The notes under the pieces were generated by a model that was not told where the DNA came from, did not search any database, and worked only from the letters and a program-made list of their open reading frames with translations. From assembly GCA_965231125.1 (NCBI GenBank), contig OZ246414.1, positions 827,239 to 891,238 on the forward strand: DNA of 64,000 nucleotides, in the 5' to 3' direction. This DNA is from an uncultured Gammaproteobacteria bacterium. GTDB lineage: Bacteria > Patescibacteriota > Microgenomatia > Woykebacterales > RBG-16-39-9b. The translations under genes were made by a program, and so were the position numbers. Numbering within the stretch: position 1 is the stretch's first letter; each line of letters starts with the position of its first letter. Shown piece after piece: positions 44,067 through 50,161 of this stretch.

Positions 44067-44345
44067 CTAGACCCCTAGGAAAACTCTCACAACATTACCG
44101 CTTACTTCCAAAATACCTCCGCCGAAGTTATAAGTAAACTTATTGCCAGATTCTGGTGTAATTGAGATTTTATTTTTTATCAAACTGATTAAATTCGCGT
44201 GCATCGGCAAGACATCCAAAGCCCCCAGATCGTTTTCCGTGCTAACAGAAAAAGCTCTTCCGTGAAAATCCGGATCTTTACTGAAAGAATGCCACATGAT
44301 GTGAATTTCCAGTTGATTTTTGCTACCTAAAGATGGGTTAGACAT
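44067..44345 (-). CDS. atpC: F-type ATP synthase epsilon subunit (short; beta-sandwich domain only)
   Basis: Position after atpD, and epsilon-like N-domain sequence. Confidence 0.6.
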   Translation of the reverse strand: MSNPSLGSKNQLEIHIMWHSFSKDPDFHGRAFSVSTENDLGALDVLPMHANLISLIKNKISITPESGNKFTYNFGGGILEVSGNVVRVFLGV

Positions 44346-44366
44346 CGTAGAACTGGTTTGAATATG

Positions 44367-45755
44367 TTAAGCTCGTAACCCAGAGTCCAAACTTTTTATA
44401 TATGAAAACTTTTCGTCAGGAACCTGGTCTAACCTACCGGAAAGAATTTCTTTAACGTCTTTTACTGTCTCTCTAACTGGAATGTACTTTCTCCCTGCCG
44501 AATCTTGCGTTGATTCTACCAATAAATCCTGGCTTAAATAATTCAGAAGCTTCCTGGCGCGATGATAAAGAGTCCGATCCCCCGCCGATAGTTCCGACTC
44601 ACCAACAATCCCTACCAAACGATCTAAATCACTATACCTTTTTACCAATTTCTGAGCCTCCAAGTAGGCGTCGTAATGTTCGTAGCCAATAATACCCGGG
44701 TCAATTAACGACGAGTTTGAGGAAAGTATATCGACCGCCGGGTAACGCCCATCCGCCAGTATTTGTCTTGACAGAATAACAGTGGAATCAAAATATGGAA
44801 GTACGGCTTGGACACCGGAGTCGGTTAAATCATCAGCCGGCACATAAACTGCCTGGACAGACGTTATGGATCCTTCTTTTGTAGAAACTAGTCTTTCTTG
44901 AAAAGAACCGACATCAGACGATAGTGTTGCCTGATAACCATCCTCGGAAGGTATGGTGTTTAGCAAACTAGATATCTCATTGCCAGCCTGTACAAACCTG
45001 TAAAAATTATCTATGAAGAAAAGTACGTCTTTTCCCCCATCGCGAAAACTTTCAGCCAGTGTAAGAGCGGAGAAACCAACTCTAAATCTAGCTGCGGCAT
45101 TTTCATTCATCTGGGCAAATATTAAAGCCACACTACCTAAAATATTTTTTTCTCTAATAATCTCGTAAAGCTCCTGACCCTCACGCAATCTCTCCCCCAC
45201 TCCACCAAAAACAGAGATACCGTTATGAAAGGCGGCAACATTGTACATAAGCTCCGTTAAAAGTACTGTTTTTCCGACTCCAGCACCACCAAAAAGACCA
45301 ACTTTACCTCCCTTTCTAAACGGTGTAAAAAAATCAATAACTTTAATACCTGTTTCTAAAATTTCTTTGGAACTGGCAACCTCGTAATAACTGGGAGCGT
45401 CTCTATAAACTGAGGCATGTTCACTACTACTAAGCTCCCCAAGATCGTCCTTTGGTCGGCCAAAAACATCAAGTAATCTTCCCAAAGTCTGCTCGCCAGT
45501 TGGGATTTTTATTGTTTCTCCAGTTCGTAGAACCTGAGCACCACGGTACAAATTTTCTACCCCCTCCAAACATAAACAGTTTGCCTCGCCGTTTGTGTCA
45601 AGGTTATAAACTTCTAACTTTATATTTGGGTTTTCTCTCAGCACTAAGACTTCGTTGTGAAAAGGCTTCCCGTCCAAAAACTCAACTGTAACAACAGTTC
45701 CTTTTATTGAAACTATTCTTCCAAAATTTAGAGATTTTGAATCGGACGTATCCAT
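44367..45755 (-). CDS. atpD: F-type ATP synthase beta subunit
   Basis: P-loop [10 protein letters not shown] and the DNFYRF / [17 protein letters not shown] motifs. Confidence 0.95.
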
Positions 45756-45756
45756 A

Positions 45757-46605
45757 TTAGGTACCCCATAAGACTCTTCCCGAAAAAGTGGCTAATTGTT
45801 TCTTGTTTCTCAAATATTTTTGAAATTTTAAATAATCTTCGTTAAGCTTATTCAGCTTTAAGGTTGCCTTTTCGCTAGCTTGATTCATGGAAATCAACCT
45901 AGCAGCAAAACGGGCAAGTTGCGCTTCATAAACTTTTTGGTGAAAAAGGTTGGCAATAATTTGAGTTTCGAAAAACTCTAAAACTGCCTTTGGGCTTGGC
46001 TCGAATATAAAATCTTTCACCGAGGCAGAGCCACTAGTCAAAGTCACTCCACCAGAAATATCGGTCTTAATTGGAACCTGACTTAAAAGCGACATAAACT
46101 CACCGTAGTAAACTGTGATCTTTTCATACTTATTAATAATTTCGGTTATCTCTTGTATCTTAGCGAGATCTGGCTTGTAATCAGCAAGATCAAAATATTC
46201 AACTCTGGAATTAAGATTCTCCCTCTCAACAAGATCTTTCCCTACACTACCAACAACTAAAGCATCACTTTGAGTTTTTTTAACATCACTTACAAAATTT
46301 TGGAAAACTTTGAAAACTAGATCTCCATACAAGTTTTGGTTCGCCGAAATGAAAACTAACACTTCTTTACCGTTTCTTTTTACAAACGGCAGATCTTCAA
46401 TATCTTTGCTTCTAATTTTTTTTAGATAAACCTGCTTTACATCTGTATACACACCCGAAACACCCGACAAAAAGTTACGGGTTTTAGCAACCGAATTTCT
46501 GACTTGAAAAATACTTATCGCGTCTATTTCTTGGTACACTTCCGCTAAAGATTTAACTGTTTTGACGGCTTCTATTTGTTCGGCAAGTTCTCTTTTGGAA
46601 TACAT
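45757..46605 (-). CDS. atpG: F-type ATP synthase gamma subunit
   Basis: Position between alpha and beta. C-terminal gamma-like helix ([23 protein letters not shown]). Confidence 0.7.
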
Positions 46606-46648
46606 GCTGGCAAAAACTCAAATTTTAAAACTAAAATTTCAAATTAGT

Positions 46649-48181: not shown

Positions 48182-48638
48182 GGGCAAACCTTTCTTTAAG
48201 CGCTTCCTGAAGTTTGGTTGCGTAAGAATAATCCTTATATTTGCCTTGATAATCAATGGTAAGTCCGGCCACCAAAGAAGGCTTGACAAAAATGTCCAGC
48301 ACAATTTTATGATCCGCGCCAGCGTTTATAAATTCTGAAATCTCGTTGAGTAATTCCCTCCCTGGTCTAAAAGCCAGCCCAAGGCTAGCTTTAGGTAGCT
48401 TTAATAAATACTCCTTCAAGCCTGTGAGATACTCGAGACGCTTTTCTTTTGATCTGGGCATATATTCCTCAATCTCTTTAAGAAAGCCAGTCTCTAAATC
48501 ACTTTCCACTTCCTTATTCAAACCAGCCTTATTTATCTCGTAATACCGCGTCTCCAACTCGCTTATATCATCCAATAACTGGTATAAGTCTTCGGTAGTT
48601 ATGATTTCTTGGGCAATCTTTTCGTAATCTTTTTCCAT
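48168..48638 (-). CDS. atpH: F-type ATP synthase delta (OSCP) subunit
   Basis: Position between b and alpha. OSCP-like C-terminus (VKPSLVAGLTIDYQGKYKDYSYATKLQ). Confidence 0.65.
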   Translation of the reverse strand: MEKDYEKIAQEIITTEDLYQLLDDISELETRYYEINKAGLNKEVESDLETGFLKEIEEYMPRSKEKRLEYLTGLKEYLLKLPKASLGLAFRPGRELLNEISEFINAGADHKIVLDIFVKPSLVAGLTIDYQGKYKDYSYATKLQEALKERFAHEKF

Positions 48639-48649
48639 AGTTCTTATTT

Positions 48650-49324
48650 TCAGAACATTTGTTCGGCTTTGGCTTTTTCTAAAGCTTTCATAACTAATTC
48701 TTGGTGCTTAGCTAAATCGATAGAGGCGCCAAGCGTTTCGGAAGCAACTTGGGAAATCACTGAAAATGTTTTTTCAGAAAGTGTTTGCTCTATTTCGCTC
48801 TTTCGCAAACGTAACTCCTCCATCAGTTTGTTTTTCTCCTGATCTGGAAACTTGACTATCTCCTCACTAAGCTGCCTCATAAGATATTGCACAGAAGACT
48901 TCGCTTGATCCGCTATCTTAATGTACTCGGAGTTCTGAAGACCCTTCATTTCCTCCAAGCTAATTTTATAAGAATTCGTTATGTCTTTTATTACATTTTG
49001 AAATACTTCGAGCTCTTTTGATATTGTTTCGTAAACTAATTTCTTTGCTTGTTCGTCCAGCTCGGCTCTTGTGTGATTGGCCATATCTTCAACGCCTTCC
49101 AAATCTTTAAGAGTTTCTTTTACAGAAGATTCCGACTCGCTCAACGCAGTTTCTAATATCTTCTTTTCCTTATCGGTTGCTTGGGAGCGTATATCTTGGA
49201 GGGATTTAAAAAACCATTTGGCGTCAAAAAGCTTTATTTGATTCTGATAGAAGATGAATATGGCAACCAATACGATTAGGTTTGTTATTAAAGAAGCTAT
49301 TAACAAAATTTGACTAGTTTCCAT
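48650..49324 (-). CDS. atpF: F-type ATP synthase subunit b
   Basis: Single N-terminal TM followed by a long charged coiled coil. Operon position. Confidence 0.7.
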   Translation of the reverse strand: METSQILLIASLITNLIVLVAIFIFYQNQIKLFDAKWFFKSLQDIRSQATDKEKKILETALSESESSVKETLKDLEGVEDMANHTRAELDEQAKKLVYETISKELEVFQNVIKDITNSYKISLEEMKGLQNSEYIKIADQAKSSVQYLMRQLSEEIVKFPDQEKNKLMEELRLRKSEIEQTLSEKTFSVISQVASETLGASIDLAKHQELVMKALEKAKAEQMF

Positions 49325-49336
49325 AAGCTTTTTGTA

Positions 49337-50161
49337 TTAGTAAAAAATTATGACCAGCGAAAGTCCTAGTCCAGCAACGGCCAAAAACACAATTGCTCCG
49401 AGATTCAAGAACATACTTGAAAAGATTGTTCCTTTAGCCAATGGGTTTCGACCTATGGCAACAATACTTGTGCGCAGCGCCCGAGCGGCAAAAATAAAAC
49501 CTAAGATAAAAGAAGCGCTCCCCACTACAAATGCGAAGAGATAGCGTATAAAAAACTCGAGTCCGCGCGGCTGCGAAAGAGTCTCTGAGGTTACCGCTGT
49601 AATTTTATCAAGTACATTTTTTAAATTTGCCGCGCCAATCCTATTTTGGTACTGAATATTAATGAAAACCGGTATGGTACCTACCCCTTCACCACTGTAA
49701 GAAGCTGATGCTTTACCAATAACCATACCTTCATGGGTTGCCTTTTCCCCAACCCCAGCTTGGTCCGACGAAGTTATGAAATCCCCAACCTCAATATTTC
49801 CGGCTGCTGCCGAAACCCTCACTTCGGCTTCCCCTTGAGAAATAACTGGTACAGTAGTTTTTGTTTGAACATTAAGTACTGCCGCTGGGTCCTGGACCGC
49901 TACGCCAAATATGTTTTGGTCGTACTCACCGGTAGATCTAACTATTTTGCTGTCGGTTGTTAAAGATAGTATATCCCCGGGTTGGATATTTTTGTCATCG
50001 ACTTCAAAGTTTTTAGCAATTTGCCCACCGGTTAAAACTTGCGCGAAAACAAAAGAATGGTTAAGACGCAGGGACGCGACCAGAACAAGACTTATTAGAC
50101 TAACAAACTTGACTCCACTAGTTAATTCAGGCAGGTTATTTAGCTTCAATCGGGCAAACAT
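49337..50161 (-). CDS. Fusion protein: signal peptide, then the extracytoplasmic domain shared with both giant proteins, then a C-terminal F-ATPase c-subunit-like helical hairpin that lacks the conserved carboxylate.
   Basis: The C-terminus LRTSIVAIGRNPLAKGTIFSSMFLNLGAIVFLAVAGLGLSLVIIFY aligns with c-subunit SRTIEGIARQPE...[22 protein letters not shown]. A Val/Asn sits at the Glu/Asp position. The gene occupies the atpE position of the operon. Confidence 0.55.
   Translation of the reverse strand: MFARLKLNNLPELTSGVKFVSLISLVLVASLRLNHSFVFAQVLTGGQIAKNFEVDDKNIQPGDILSLTTDSKIVRSTGEYDQNIFGVAVQDPAAVLNVQTKTTVPVISQGEAEVRVSAAAGNIEVGDFITSSDQAGVGEKATHEGMVIGKASASYSGEGVGTIPVFINIQYQNRIGAANLKNVLDKITAVTSETLSQPRGLEFFIRYLFAFVVGSASFILGFIFAARALRTSIVAIGRNPLAKGTIFSSMFLNLGAIVFLAVAGLGLSLVIIFY

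What the first reader, a model, noticed from the sequence alone, without database searches (positions are those of the whole stretch)
44067..50161. F-type ATP synthase operon without an a-subunit gene, headed by a c-subunit-like protein lacking the proton-binding carboxylate
The gene order is [274-aa fusion]-atpF(b)-atpH(delta)-atpA-atpG-atpD-atpC. The canonical atpB (a-subunit) is absent and the next gene is divergent giant gene 2. The atpE slot holds a protein whose last ~70 aa align convincingly to c-subunits (R-T-x-I-x-x-I-x-R-x-P loop, [9 protein letters not shown]-like helix 2). A hydrophobic residue (Val/Asn) replaces the essential Glu/Asp. It also carries a large extracytoplasmic domain shared with the giant proteins. 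So either the real a and c genes are elsewhere and this is a c-like membrane anchor co-opted for surface structures, or the F1 complex here does not run a conventional proton-driven rotor.
Basis: partly seen in the sequence, partly recalled or inferred. Interest (0 to 1): 0.7.

Follow-up and report, generated by a model that had tools for sequence, protein, structure and literature searches.

The report
ATP synthase with remodelled, ion-blind rotor
A large group of tiny uncultured bacteria (Microgenomates, part of the Candidate Phyla Radiation) keeps an intact ATP-splitting F1 motor, but its membrane rotor subunit has lost the acidic residue needed to carry protons and has gained an outward-facing phage-fibre-like domain, and no proton-channel subunit gene lies nearby, so the machine probably does mechanical work at the cell surface rather than making ATP.

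Summary

My best reading is an F-type ATPase with a dismantled Fo that is not ion-coupled, is driven by ATP hydrolysis and is mechanically linked to the cell surface. The main caveat is that whole genomes could not be scanned for atpB/atpE. I found no description of it in the literature.

The parts
50162..50367 (.). Divergent intergenic region between the ATPase operon and giant gene 2, with promoter-like sites facing both ways
   Evidence: minus-strand TAGATA-16-TATAAT at 50222-50195, plus-strand TTGACA-17-CATAAT at 50270-50298. These are consensus matches only. The region-wide count does not exceed that of shuffled sequence.
49337..50161 (-). 274-aa fusion protein in the atpE slot: signal peptide, gp12-like external domain, linker helix, c-subunit-like hairpin
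   Evidence: The family has at least 875 clusters at 50% identity with E<=1e-30. AlphaFold mean pLDDT is 86.8.
50039..50161 (-). Signal peptide (residues 1-41, ending ...VFAQ)
   Evidence: Basic N-terminus, hydrophobic helix 14-33, Ala40-Gln41 conserved in 175 and 170 of 196 sequences. Cleavage is inferred; no signal-peptide predictor was available.
49634..50035 (-). Exported beta-rich domain (residues 43-176) with the fold of the phi29 gp12 C-terminal autochaperone and of phage cement proteins; homologous to a domain of both giants
49340..49570 (-). c-subunit-like two-helix hairpin (residues 198-274)
49442..49450 (-). Arg238-Asn239-Pro240, the cytoplasmic loop that in c subunits contacts gamma and epsilon
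   Evidence: Invariant in 196 of 196 sequences. Aligns with E. coli R41-Q42-P43. Codons checked.
49388..49390 (-). Val258, at the position of the ion-binding carboxylate (E. coli cAsp61)
   Evidence: hhalign register and HMMER alignments. The family column is I/V/L/A/T/F/G and never D or E.
48650..49324 (-). Subunit b homologue (224 aa; one N-terminal transmembrane helix plus a long helical stalk)
   Evidence: No Pfam hit for the single sequence. The profile of 26 orthologues hits ATP synthase b 9o19_X at E=1.7e-9, including the transmembrane helix.
48168..48638 (-). Subunit delta (OSCP) homologue, 156 aa
   Evidence: Weak Pfam OSCP hit E=0.002. Profile hits OSCP/delta at E=2.4e-7.
46649..48181 (-). 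Subunit alpha, 510 aa
   Evidence: Pfam ATP-synt_ab E=4.6e-66. PDB alpha subunits E=1.6e-101. Arg finger (SVTRVG) invariant in 70 of 70. The Walker A Lys is Arg in this window only; 66 of 70 have Lys. Below the NCBIfam atpA cut-off, 397 against 484.
45757..46605 (-). Subunit gamma, 282 aa
   Evidence: Pfam ATP-synt 81.8 bits against a cut-off of 39.9. Below the NCBIfam equivalog cut-off.
44367..45755 (-). Subunit beta, 462 aa, catalytic
   Evidence: Passes the NCBIfam atpD equivalog (500 against 462.85). PDB beta subunits E=7.6e-130. Walker A K/T, catalytic Glu-Arg (GER), Walker B Asp and the DNxxR Arg are invariant in 64 of 64 sequences.
44067..44345 (-). Subunit epsilon, 92 aa, beta-sandwich domain only; no C-terminal inhibitory helices
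   Evidence: Pfam ATP-synt_DE_N 29.2 bits against 27. The family median length is 92 aa.
50368..57495 (+). Giant surface protein 2 (2375 aa). It is divergent from the operon and carries the shared gp12-like domain at residues 2073-2219 (nt 56584-57024), preceded by PGDYAEQY
   Evidence: An N-terminal HTH-like segment and one transmembrane helix are read from the sequence.
35759..43504 (+). Giant surface protein 1 (2581 aa). It has two MerR-type HTH motifs, one transmembrane helix, repeats, and the shared domain at residues 2132-2274 (nt 42152-42580), preceded by GADVAEMY
   Evidence: weak Peptidase_G2 and H_lectin hits; phage tail-fibre PHROG.

Best explanation
This is the Microgenomates form of the F-type ATPase, in which the Fo sector has been dismantled and rebuilt.

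Shown:
- The operon encodes a complete F1 (alpha, beta, gamma and a short epsilon) with every known catalytic residue intact.
- It encodes a peripheral stalk (b, delta).
- In the atpE position it encodes a c-subunit homologue. That protein keeps the F1-facing R-N-P loop, has no membrane carboxylate, and carries an N-terminal domain (with a predicted signal peptide, so inferred to be exported) of the phi29 gp12 autochaperone / phage-cement fold.
- The same domain occurs near the C-termini of the neighbouring giant surface proteins, which have a MerR-type N-terminus (Pfam-supported for giant 1 and for giants of related loci) and one transmembrane helix read from the sequence.
- No a subunit is encoded in or near the operon.

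Inferred:
- Without a carboxylate on c and without an a subunit, the complex cannot couple rotation to H+ or Na+ flow. It is therefore neither an ATP synthase nor an ion pump.
- F1 most likely hydrolyses fermentation-derived ATP and turns, or strains, an oligomer of the c-like subunit.
- That motion would be transmitted across the membrane to the external gp12-like domains.
- Those domains would engage the homologous domains of the giant fibres, affecting their assembly, release or movement.

In effect this would be an 'F1-Xo' mechanical ATPase, working like the F1-like ATPases of mycoplasmas. It evolved independently, by modification of the canonical operon.
For: - Operon anatomy and tight spacing.
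- R238-N239-P240 invariant in 196 of 196. No Asp/Glu in helix 1 in any sequence. In helix 2, 188 of 196 have none, and the other 8 have Glu only at residue 247, at the cytoplasmic end.
- The same seven-gene order holds in nearly all loci complete enough to show it (exceptions: L052, L081, L087). The loci are 80 fetched from 207 matching species-representative genomes, plus metagenome contigs, with fusion identity down to about 30%.
- Across 4,899 ORFs from 1.41 Mb there is no phmmer hit to E. coli or human a subunits and no free c subunit.
- No conserved multi-transmembrane neighbour. Of 26 multi-transmembrane ORFs in the loci, none matches Pfam ATP-synt_A.
- Beta Walker A, GER, Walker B and DNxxR, and the alpha Arg finger, are invariant. 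Epsilon lacks the inhibitory C-terminal domain.
- Giant ORFs lie within 4.5 kb upstream in 30 of 62 loci, one of which (L040) is LeuS. 25 are divergent and nearly all of these start with a MerR-type HTH. Another 10 of 36 loci have a giant just after epsilon.
- In L052 the fusion gene stays beside a giant gene without the ATPase genes.
Against: - Whole genomes could not be scanned, so a canonical or very divergent a subunit (and a second c) elsewhere is not excluded.
- Pfam ATP-synt_C does not match at E<=0.1, and the NCBIfam c model gives only E=0.028. Homology therefore rests on profile, structure and synteny.
- The helix-1 GxGxGxG packing motif of c-rings is replaced by A210/G214/S217-F218/G221-F222/F225. 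Ring formation is unproven, and a trimer dictated by the gp12-like domain is conceivable.
- b and delta are retained, yet the usual membrane partner of b (subunit a) is missing. The stator of the proposed motor is therefore unexplained.
- Giant genes are common in these genomes; about 30% of this window is giant ORFs. leuS and comEA/comEC are also syntenic. The adjacency may therefore be partly ordinary synteny.
- There are no expression or biochemical data.
Confidence: 0.55

Rival explanations
1. A conventional F1Fo ATP synthase or ion pump. Canonical atpB and atpE would lie elsewhere in the genome and pair with this F1, b and delta. The 274-aa protein would be an accessory c-like membrane protein, for example an anchor for surface fibres, that merely sits at the head of the operon.
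For: Beta passes the atpD equivalog cut-off and all catalytic residues are intact. b and delta, whose normal job is to tie F1 to subunit a, are retained. Only 64 kb of a roughly 915-kb genome was visible. In L052 the fusion occurs without adjacent ATPase genes.
Against: The fusion occupies the atpE slot 12 nt before b in about 80 species. Its F1-contact loop R-N-P is the most conserved part of the hairpin, invariant in 196 of 196. No atpB or free atpE appears in 1.41 Mb around 85 operons. From general knowledge, atpB and atpE are normally adjacent to each other and to atpF, so relocating both while a c paralogue fills the slot in every lineage is unparsimonious.
Confidence: 0.12
2. A non-rotary, membrane-docked ATPase platform. 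The F1-like hexamer with gamma would work like the related type III secretion/flagellar ATPase complex (FliI-FliJ-FliH), helping to export or assemble the giant proteins. The c-like protein and b would serve only as static membrane tethers.
For: Alpha and beta also score against FliI/SctN models. The operon is adjacent to giant exported proteins. There is no a subunit to act as stator. The packing motif of helix 1 is altered.
Against: The scores are far higher for F1 than for FliI/SctN (500 against 206 bits for beta). The full rotary set (gamma, epsilon, delta, b) is conserved. The giants have an N-terminal transmembrane anchor and are presumably Sec substrates. No export-gate genes are nearby.
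Confidence: 0.13
3. Still ion-coupled, through an unconventional site, for example the conserved membrane Asn253/His, working with an unrecognised protein that replaces subunit a.
For: Asn253 is conserved in helix 2 (N162, H16, S15 of 196). The peripheral stalk is retained.
Against: To my knowledge, every characterised F/V/A-type rotor uses a membrane-embedded Asp or Glu, and none is present here. No conserved multi-transmembrane partner gene lies near the operon. From the literature, these organisms generally lack respiratory chains that would make or use a gradient (PMC13293708).
Confidence: 0.07
4. A decaying remnant of an ATP synthase with no current function.
For: Subunit a and the c carboxylate are lost. 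CPR lineages are known to lose ATP synthase wholly or partly (PMC10656485; PMC7143001).
Against: All seven genes are intact, with catalytic residues invariant at 30-60% overall identity across 60-80 species each. The fusion family has at least 875 clusters at 50% identity. Invariant motifs in both domains show purifying selection.
Confidence: 0.03

Closest known systems
Canonical bacterial F1Fo ATP synthase (atpIBEFHAGDC operon)
   Same: Same gene order from the atpE slot onward (c-like, b, delta, alpha, gamma, beta, epsilon). Beta meets the atpD equivalog model. All catalytic residues are conserved. The c-like hairpin has the same topology and R-[QN]-P loop. The loop sequence AIGRNP is shared with the Chloroflexus c subunit (9itj_H).
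   Different: No atpB. The c homologue lacks the ion-binding Asp/Glu and the GxGxGxG motif, and carries a signal peptide plus a roughly 135-residue external domain. Epsilon lacks its C-terminal domain. Alpha, gamma, delta and epsilon fall below the NCBIfam equivalog cut-offs.
Mycoplasma F1-like 'X0' ATPases (type 2, the Mycoplasma mobile gliding motor, G1-ATPase; type 3, MSC_0618/0619 clusters). This comparison draws on my own knowledge of Beven et al. 2012 and the gliding-motor literature; PDB 9io5 appears.
   Same: F1-type alpha/beta/gamma without a proton-conducting Fo. Presumed ATP-hydrolysis-driven mechanical function. Functional or genomic association with very large surface proteins.
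   Different: Not a member. The scores against MSC_0618/0619 and MMOB1660/1670 models are far below their cut-offs and lower than against canonical atpA/atpD. Here b, delta, epsilon and a c homologue are kept in the canonical order. This is an independent derivation in a different phylum.
c/K subunits without the ion-binding carboxylate reported as 'non-catalytic' in the ProAD survey (PMC11738941)
   Same: Rotor subunits lacking the essential Glu/Asp exist: 20 F/N-type and 41 A-type cases in 48,143 enzymes.
   Different: Those cases were counted only where a and c were both found. No fusion to an external domain and no clade-wide pattern were described. Operons lacking a were treated as incomplete.
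Phage phi29 gp12 (pre-neck appendage) C-terminal autochaperone domain, peptidase family G2; and phage capsid cement/decoration proteins
   Different: In the fusion the D and E are replaced (Gln47, Lys50). The domain is tethered to a membrane hairpin instead of ending a fibre. Pfam Peptidase_G2 is not reached: E=0.0095 for giant 1 only.
Minimal rotary ATPases of reduced symbionts (Nanoarchaeum equitans A-type; 'F1-only' Saccharimonadia MAGs noted in PMC9166423)
   Same: Reduced-genome episymbionts keep part of a rotary ATPase whose energetic role is unclear.
   Different: Here the complex is not merely reduced. The rotor subunit has gained a new external domain, and the arrangement is conserved across a whole class-level lineage.

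Membership tests
F-type ion-translocating ATP synthase (F1Fo) | Catalytic alpha3beta3 core: beta Walker A Lys/Thr, catalytic Glu-Arg (GER), Walker B Asp, DNxxR Arg; alpha Arg finger | tested here: met
   Invariant in 64 beta and 70 alpha sequences. Beta scores 500 bits against the atpD cut-off of 462.85.
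F-type ion-translocating ATP synthase (F1Fo) | Central stalk gamma and epsilon | tested here: met
   The Pfam gathering scores are passed: gamma 81.8 against 39.9, epsilon N-domain 29.2 against 27. Both are below the NCBIfam equivalog cut-offs. Epsilon lacks its C-terminal helices.
F-type ion-translocating ATP synthase (F1Fo) | Peripheral stalk b and delta | tested here: met
   Family profiles hit ATP synthase b (E=1.7e-9) and OSCP/delta (E=2.4e-7) in the PDB. The single sequences are below the Pfam and NCBIfam cut-offs.
F-type ion-translocating ATP synthase (F1Fo) | c subunit with a membrane-embedded Asp/Glu that binds H+ or Na+ | tested here: not met
   Val258 is at the cAsp61 position. There is no mid-membrane Asp/Glu in any of 196 family members.
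F-type ion-translocating ATP synthase (F1Fo) | a subunit (PF00119) with the essential Arg, normally encoded next to c | tested here: not met
   Absent from the operon, from the 64-kb window and from ±10 kb around about 85 related operons. The sensitivity of the local a-subunit search is limited. The rest of the genome cannot be tested with these tools.
ATP synthase subunit c (Pfam ATP-synt_C, PF00137) | Match to the curated family model | tested here: not met
   No Pfam hit at E<=0.1. The NCBIfam PRK13468 c model gives E=0.028, 14.7 bits against a cut-off of 116.
ATP synthase subunit c (Pfam ATP-synt_C, PF00137) | Two-helix hairpin, both termini outside, cytoplasmic R-[QN]-P loop; profile and fold similarity; atpE position in the operon | tested here: met
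   similarity; invariant RNP; model; position. Topology is inferred from the signal peptide and from basic residues flanking the loop.
ATP synthase subunit c (Pfam ATP-synt_C, PF00137) | Helix-1 GxGxGxG motif and assembly into a c8-c17 ring | tested here: inconclusive
   The motif is degenerate: A210, G214, S217, G221 with conserved Phe218/222/225. The oligomeric state cannot be tested with a monomer-only predictor.
Mycoplasma F1-like ATPases (types 2 and 3) | Match to the NCBIfam exception models MSC_0618_beta / MSC_0619_alpha or glide_MMOB1670 / MMOB1660 | tested here: not met
   Scores are 369 against 570, 252 against 520, 368 against 850 and 342 against 600. All are lower than the scores against canonical atpD/atpA.
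N-ATPase (alternate F1Fo, atpDCQRBEFAG) | alt_F1F0 alpha/beta models and the characteristic gene order with atpQ/atpR | tested here: not met
   Scores are 416 against 752 and 346 against 750. The gene order is the canonical F-type order.
Peptidase G2 / phi29 gp12 C-terminal autochaperone domain | Fold of the gp12 C-terminal fragment | tested here: met
Peptidase G2 / phi29 gp12 C-terminal autochaperone domain | Curated Pfam model PF11962 and the autocleavage Asp/Glu pair at the domain start | tested here: not met
   The fusion has no PF11962 hit, and the D/E positions are Gln47 and Lys50 (family G/Q/D/L and T/I/S/V/R/K). In the giants the D-x-A-E motif is present in 9 of 12 domain hits, but PF11962 gives only E=0.0095. 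The identity of the gp12 catalytic residues is recalled from memory.

The most novel reading that the evidence does not exclude
An ATP-driven rotary mechanotransmission device. Cytoplasmic F1 would turn an oligomer of carboxylate-less c subunits. Their external phi29-gp12-type autochaperone domains would dock with the cleavable homologous domains of the giant, membrane-anchored surface fibres. The device would thereby deliver mechanical energy outside the membrane to assemble, release or move those fibres. In bacteria with no respiratory chain this would be a proton-motive-force-independent counterpart of TonB/Tol-type energy transmission, and a convergent analogue of the Mycoplasma mobile gliding motor.
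Probability: 0.25. Interest if true: 0.92.

Novelty: new variant of a known kind. Interest (0 to 1): 0.76.

Why it matters
Genome surveys routinely score the presence of an 'F-type ATPase' in CPR/Patescibacteria. They take it as evidence that these cells make ATP from, or maintain, a proton-motive force, even though no gradient-generating system can be found (PMC9166423, PMC13293708).

For at least 207 species representatives, mostly Microgenomates-labelled, and at least 875 protein clusters at 50% identity, the rotor subunit cannot bind ions and no channel subunit accompanies it. That inference fails for these organisms, and their energy budget must be purely substrate-level.

It also offers a natural example of an F1 motor re-coupled to something other than ion flow, with the rotor subunit displaying a domain on the outside of the cell. 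This makes testable the question of how episymbiotic, wall-attached ultra-small bacteria power their giant surface proteins. It adds a second, independent case beside the mycoplasma F1-like ATPases.

There is a practical consequence. Annotation pipelines call this protein 'hypothetical' or, occasionally, 'subunit c', and treat the operon as an incomplete or complete ATP synthase. Both readings mislead.

Tried and rejected
1. I first read the family-wide change 'LLGRMPS' to 'LL[NGS][TS]IPS' in beta as loss of the phosphate-binding Arg246. Renumbering showed that E. coli Arg246 is the Arg of 'DNIYR', which is invariant. The claim was withdrawn (note).
2. Candidate a-subunit replacements were examined and rejected:
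   - the 316-aa gene upstream of the fusion in L007 is soluble and ends in an HTH;
   - the 200-aa genes after epsilon in L003 and L005 have one transmembrane helix and are not conserved;
   - the 5-transmembrane ORF inside the L018 operon is the membrane part of an inserted sensor kinase, next to a response regulator;
   - the 145-aa gene at 43605-44042 recurs in only 5 loci.
Sensitivity to a very divergent a subunit is limited.
4. I found no way to scan a whole fusion-bearing genome. 
5. Ten literature searches found no description of the fusion ((rejected: term too short)). The ProAD supplement and the supplement of PMC9166423 held no per-genome subunit tables.
6. The afdb50 fold library was unavailable.
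7. One protein comparison failed on a frame error.
No monomer prediction would test oligomerisation.

Full report
**What is there.** The region 44067-50161 carries seven tightly packed minus-strand genes.

| Gene | Coordinates | Length | Main evidence |
|---|---|---|---|
| fusion | 49337-50161 | 274 aa | see below |
| b-like | 48650-49324 | 224 aa | profile of 26 orthologues hits ATP synthase b, E=1.7e-9 |
| delta-like | 48168-48638 | 156 aa | profile of 28 orthologues hits OSCP/delta, E=2.4e-7 |
| alpha | 46649-48181 | 510 aa | Pfam, NCBIfam, PDB E=1.6e-101 |
| gamma | 45757-46605 | 282 aa | Pfam, NCBIfam |
| beta | 44367-45755 | 462 aa | Pfam, NCBIfam, PDB E=7.6e-130 |
| epsilon | 44067-44345 | 92 aa | Pfam, NCBIfam |

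The alpha start is the ATG used by two independent gene callers, not the upstream TTG of the mechanical ORF list. b and delta are too divergent for single-sequence models, so their identity rests on the profiles. Only beta reaches its NCBIfam equivalog cut-off (500 against 462.85). The others are homologous but divergent.

Upstream of the fusion lie 206 nt with promoter-like sites facing both ways, then a divergent 2375-aa gene. There is no atpB. The rest of the window holds ordinary CPR housekeeping and cell-envelope genes:

- nusG and rplKAJL;
- mreB, a sortase and pilins;
- argS and leuS;
- comEA and comEC;
- glycosyltransferases;
- obg.

No a- or c-subunit gene is among them.

**The head gene.** The AlphaFold model, built from a 45-sequence alignment, has mean pLDDT 86.8. 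It shows four parts:

- an N-terminal hydrophobic helix (residues 14-33);
- a beta-rich domain (48-172);
- a linker helix (180-196);
- a long helical hairpin (198-238 and 240-273).

*The hairpin is a c subunit by four independent tests.*

1. Against 177,635 PDB sequences the single sequence hits only F-type c subunits (7 of 7, best E=0.049). So does the family profile (13 of 13, best E=7e-4 to the Spirulina c15 subunit, whole hairpin).
4. The gene sits exactly where atpE sits.

Pfam ATP-synt_C does not match at E<=0.1. Pipelines therefore miss the protein, although JGI named two relatives 'subunit c'.

In the ungapped hhalign register, E. coli R41-Q42-P43 equals R238-N239-P240, and the proton-binding D61 equals Val258.

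**The family.** The protein belongs to a large, uniform family. There were 141 hits in the word-indexed search. At 50% identity there are 875 cluster representatives with E<=1e-30, and the best-ranked ones shown are almost all 240-300 aa and match end to end. In the GTDB-based collection, 207 species-representative genomes carry it.

In 196 distinct sequences:

- R238, N239 and P240 are invariant, and A235, I236, G237, L241, A242 and I246 nearly so.
- The Val258 column holds only I/V/L/A/T/F/G.
- Helix 1 has no Asp or Glu in any sequence.
- Helix 2 has none in 188. The other 8 have Glu at 247, the cytoplasmic end.
- A membrane-embedded Asn253 is conserved (N162, H16, S15).
- The helix-1 GxGxGxG motif is replaced by a small-residue stripe flanked by conserved Phe.

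The part of c that touches F1 is thus under the strongest constraint. The part that carries ions is gone, and the ring-packing surface has changed.

**The operon elsewhere.** I examined metagenome contigs and 80 genome loci, 1.41 Mb and 4,899 ORFs in all. The order fusion-b-delta-alpha-gamma-beta-epsilon recurs almost without exception. The exceptions are:

- L087, where the fusion is divergent from b through epsilon;
- L081, L018 and L020, which have insertions;
- L052, where the fusion lies beside a giant gene without ATPase genes.

phmmer with E. coli and human a subunits found nothing. An HMM of c subunits hit only the fusion proteins. Clustering of all flanking ORFs found no further conserved membrane partner. 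None of 26 multi-transmembrane ORFs matches ATP-synt_A.

Record titles place the family mostly in the Microgenomates group: Woyke-, Woese-, Davies-, Curtiss-, Ames-, Levy-, Gottesman- and Pacebacteria. Other loci carry other or evidently unreliable labels. The nearest relatives of the window protein are a 'Patescibacteria group' MAG (60% identity) and a Woykebacteria MAG (54%).

**Is F1 alive?** Yes, by sequence.

- Across 64 beta sequences the Walker A GGAGVGKT, the catalytic GER, the Walker B Asp and the DNxxR Arg (E. coli Arg246) are invariant.
- Across 70 alpha sequences the Arg finger is invariant.
- Epsilon is uniformly short (median 92 aa) and lacks the C-terminal helices. From general knowledge, those helices inhibit hydrolysis in bacterial enzymes.
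- The only family-specific oddities are a changed beta loop (LLGRMPSAVGYQ becomes LL[NGS][TSI]IPSE[DQ]GYQ) and, in this window alone, Arg for Lys in the non-catalytic alpha Walker A.

The domain is homologous to a segment 150-310 residues before the C-terminus of both flanking giant proteins (E=9e-16 and 5e-14). The giant 1 segment also matches a phage tail-fibre PHROG and, weakly, Peptidase_G2.

In the giants of this window and of other loci the domain is preceded by D-x-A-E-x-[YF] in 9 of 12 domain hits. From memory, this resembles the gp12 autocleavage site. In the fusion family these positions are not acidic, and the domain begins right after the signal-peptide A-Q site.

Giant 1 starts with MerR-type HTH motifs and a single transmembrane helix. 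For giant 2 these features are read from the sequence only.

A giant ORF lies within 4.5 kb upstream of the fusion in 30 of 62 loci with enough sequence. One of these (L040) is LeuS. Of the 30, 25 are divergent, and nearly all of those open with the same HTH. A giant follows epsilon in 10 of 36 loci. In two loci (L072, L074) a giant ORF on the same strand ends 11 nt before the fusion. The linkage is suggestive, but giants are common here and leuS and comEA/comEC are also syntenic.

**Interpretation.** These points are shown:

- a conserved F-type operon with intact F1 and stalks;
- a c homologue without a carboxylate but with a conserved F1-facing loop and a new domain that carries a predicted signal peptide;
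- no a subunit nearby.

These points are inferred:

- The complex cannot be ion-coupled. To my knowledge, all characterised rotary ATPases need the c/K carboxylate and subunit a/I.
- It most likely hydrolyses ATP and transmits the resulting motion to the outer face of the membrane.
- There, gp12-like domains meet the homologous domains of giant fibres.

These points are not shown:

- the oligomeric state (ring or trimer);
- what anchors b;
- any physical contact with the giants;
- the absence of atpB/atpE from the rest of the genome.

I put 0.55 on the remodelled, non-ion-coupled, hydrolysis-driven reading and about 0.25 on the specific rotary mechanotransmission to surface fibres. The rivals are: canonical a/c elsewhere (0.12), a static export or assembly platform (0.13), an unconventional ion site (0.07) and a decaying relic (0.03).

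**Relation to what is known.** It works like the mycoplasma F1-like 'X0' ATPases but is not one of them. It derives from the canonical operon and keeps b, delta, epsilon and c.

Surveys have noted related facts without describing this architecture:

- c/K subunits without the carboxylate, 61 cases among complete enzymes (PMC11738941);
- CPR with 'minimal' or lost complexes (PMC10656485);
- 'F1-only' Saccharimonadia MAGs (PMC9166423).

Recent reviews still read the CPR ATPase as evidence for proton-motive-force-linked ATP synthesis or pumping (PMC13293708; PMC9166423). Within the searchable library I found no description of the fusion. I therefore rate it a new variant of a known kind, with high interest for bioenergetics and CPR biology.

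Noticed in passing
window 35759-43504 (+) and 50368-57495 (+); also giants in L007, L008, L030, L032, L036, L045, L051, L060, L068, L080: Giant proteins of 2,000 to over 3,000 aa share one architecture. Each has a cytoplasmic MerR-type HTH at the N-terminus, one transmembrane helix, long Gly/Thr-rich repeats, and a gp12-like domain preceded by D-x-A-E-x-[YF] 150-530 residues before the C-terminus. A DNA-binding-type domain fused to a giant surface fibre is unexplained. The motif suggests autoproteolytic maturation like that of phage tail spikes.
   Followed up: partly
window 36-43 kb, inside giant 1: Giant 1 contains near-identical internal duplications of roughly 140 residues. One unit containing 'SVSGMEF.GGELSLIRGCAAGGILEWDNVAFEWDCGVDD...' and one containing 'LHSWTNTLTNDSSSQDINLTLGADADAD...' each occur twice. 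GC is raised there (0.51-0.52 against about 0.43 elsewhere).
   Followed up: no
L001 (JGI Ga0136847_12392700) against window/L002: The same locus on a JGI contig has gamma split into 74 + 201 aa and giant 2 split into 661 + 1636 aa. These are frameshifts, arising either from population variants or from assembly errors.
   Followed up: no
L052 4970-5746: In this locus the fusion gene sits beside a divergent MerR-giant gene but is followed by a phosphoglycerate-mutase-like gene instead of b, delta, alpha and the rest. Here the c-like protein stays with the giant rather than with the ATPase.
   Followed up: partly
L018 9576-11361; L020 1819-2968 and 4121-10605: Foreign genes are inserted inside the operon in some lineages. 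L018 has a response regulator plus a sensor kinase between alpha and gamma. L020 has toxin-antitoxin-like genes and transporter genes between the fusion, b/delta and alpha.
   Followed up: partly
window 8230-8649 (-): A 139-aa cupredoxin / blue-copper-like protein lies in a genome region with no sign of a respiratory chain. It sits next to a 1497-aa subtilase-FG-GAP-fn3 surface protein (8656-13149).
   Followed up: no
window 26001-28000: A local GC peak (0.53) coincides with an Orn/DAP/Arg decarboxylase-like gene (26608-27888). This may be a foreign acquisition.
   Followed up: no
window 29612-35661; L003, L005: The neighbourhood leuS - giant - ATPase operon - comEA/comEC is conserved across distant family members. 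Part of the giant-ATPase adjacency may therefore reflect general synteny.
   Followed up: partly
window 60473-62953 (+): An 826-aa protein combines DUF2961 with a C-terminal type I dockerin domain, an unusual pairing for a CPR bacterium.
   Followed up: no
window 44367-45755 (beta), family-wide: The beta loop 'LLGRMPSAVGYQ' is 'LL[NGS][TSI]IPSE[DQ]GYQ' in all 64 family members, with an invariant Glu replacing Ala. Its significance is unknown.
   Followed up: partly
P0239 (1543 aa): The gp12-like domain occurs far beyond the fusion family: 10,508 clusters at E<=1e-10. In P0239 it matches in three stretches within one 1,543-aa protein.
   Followed up: no
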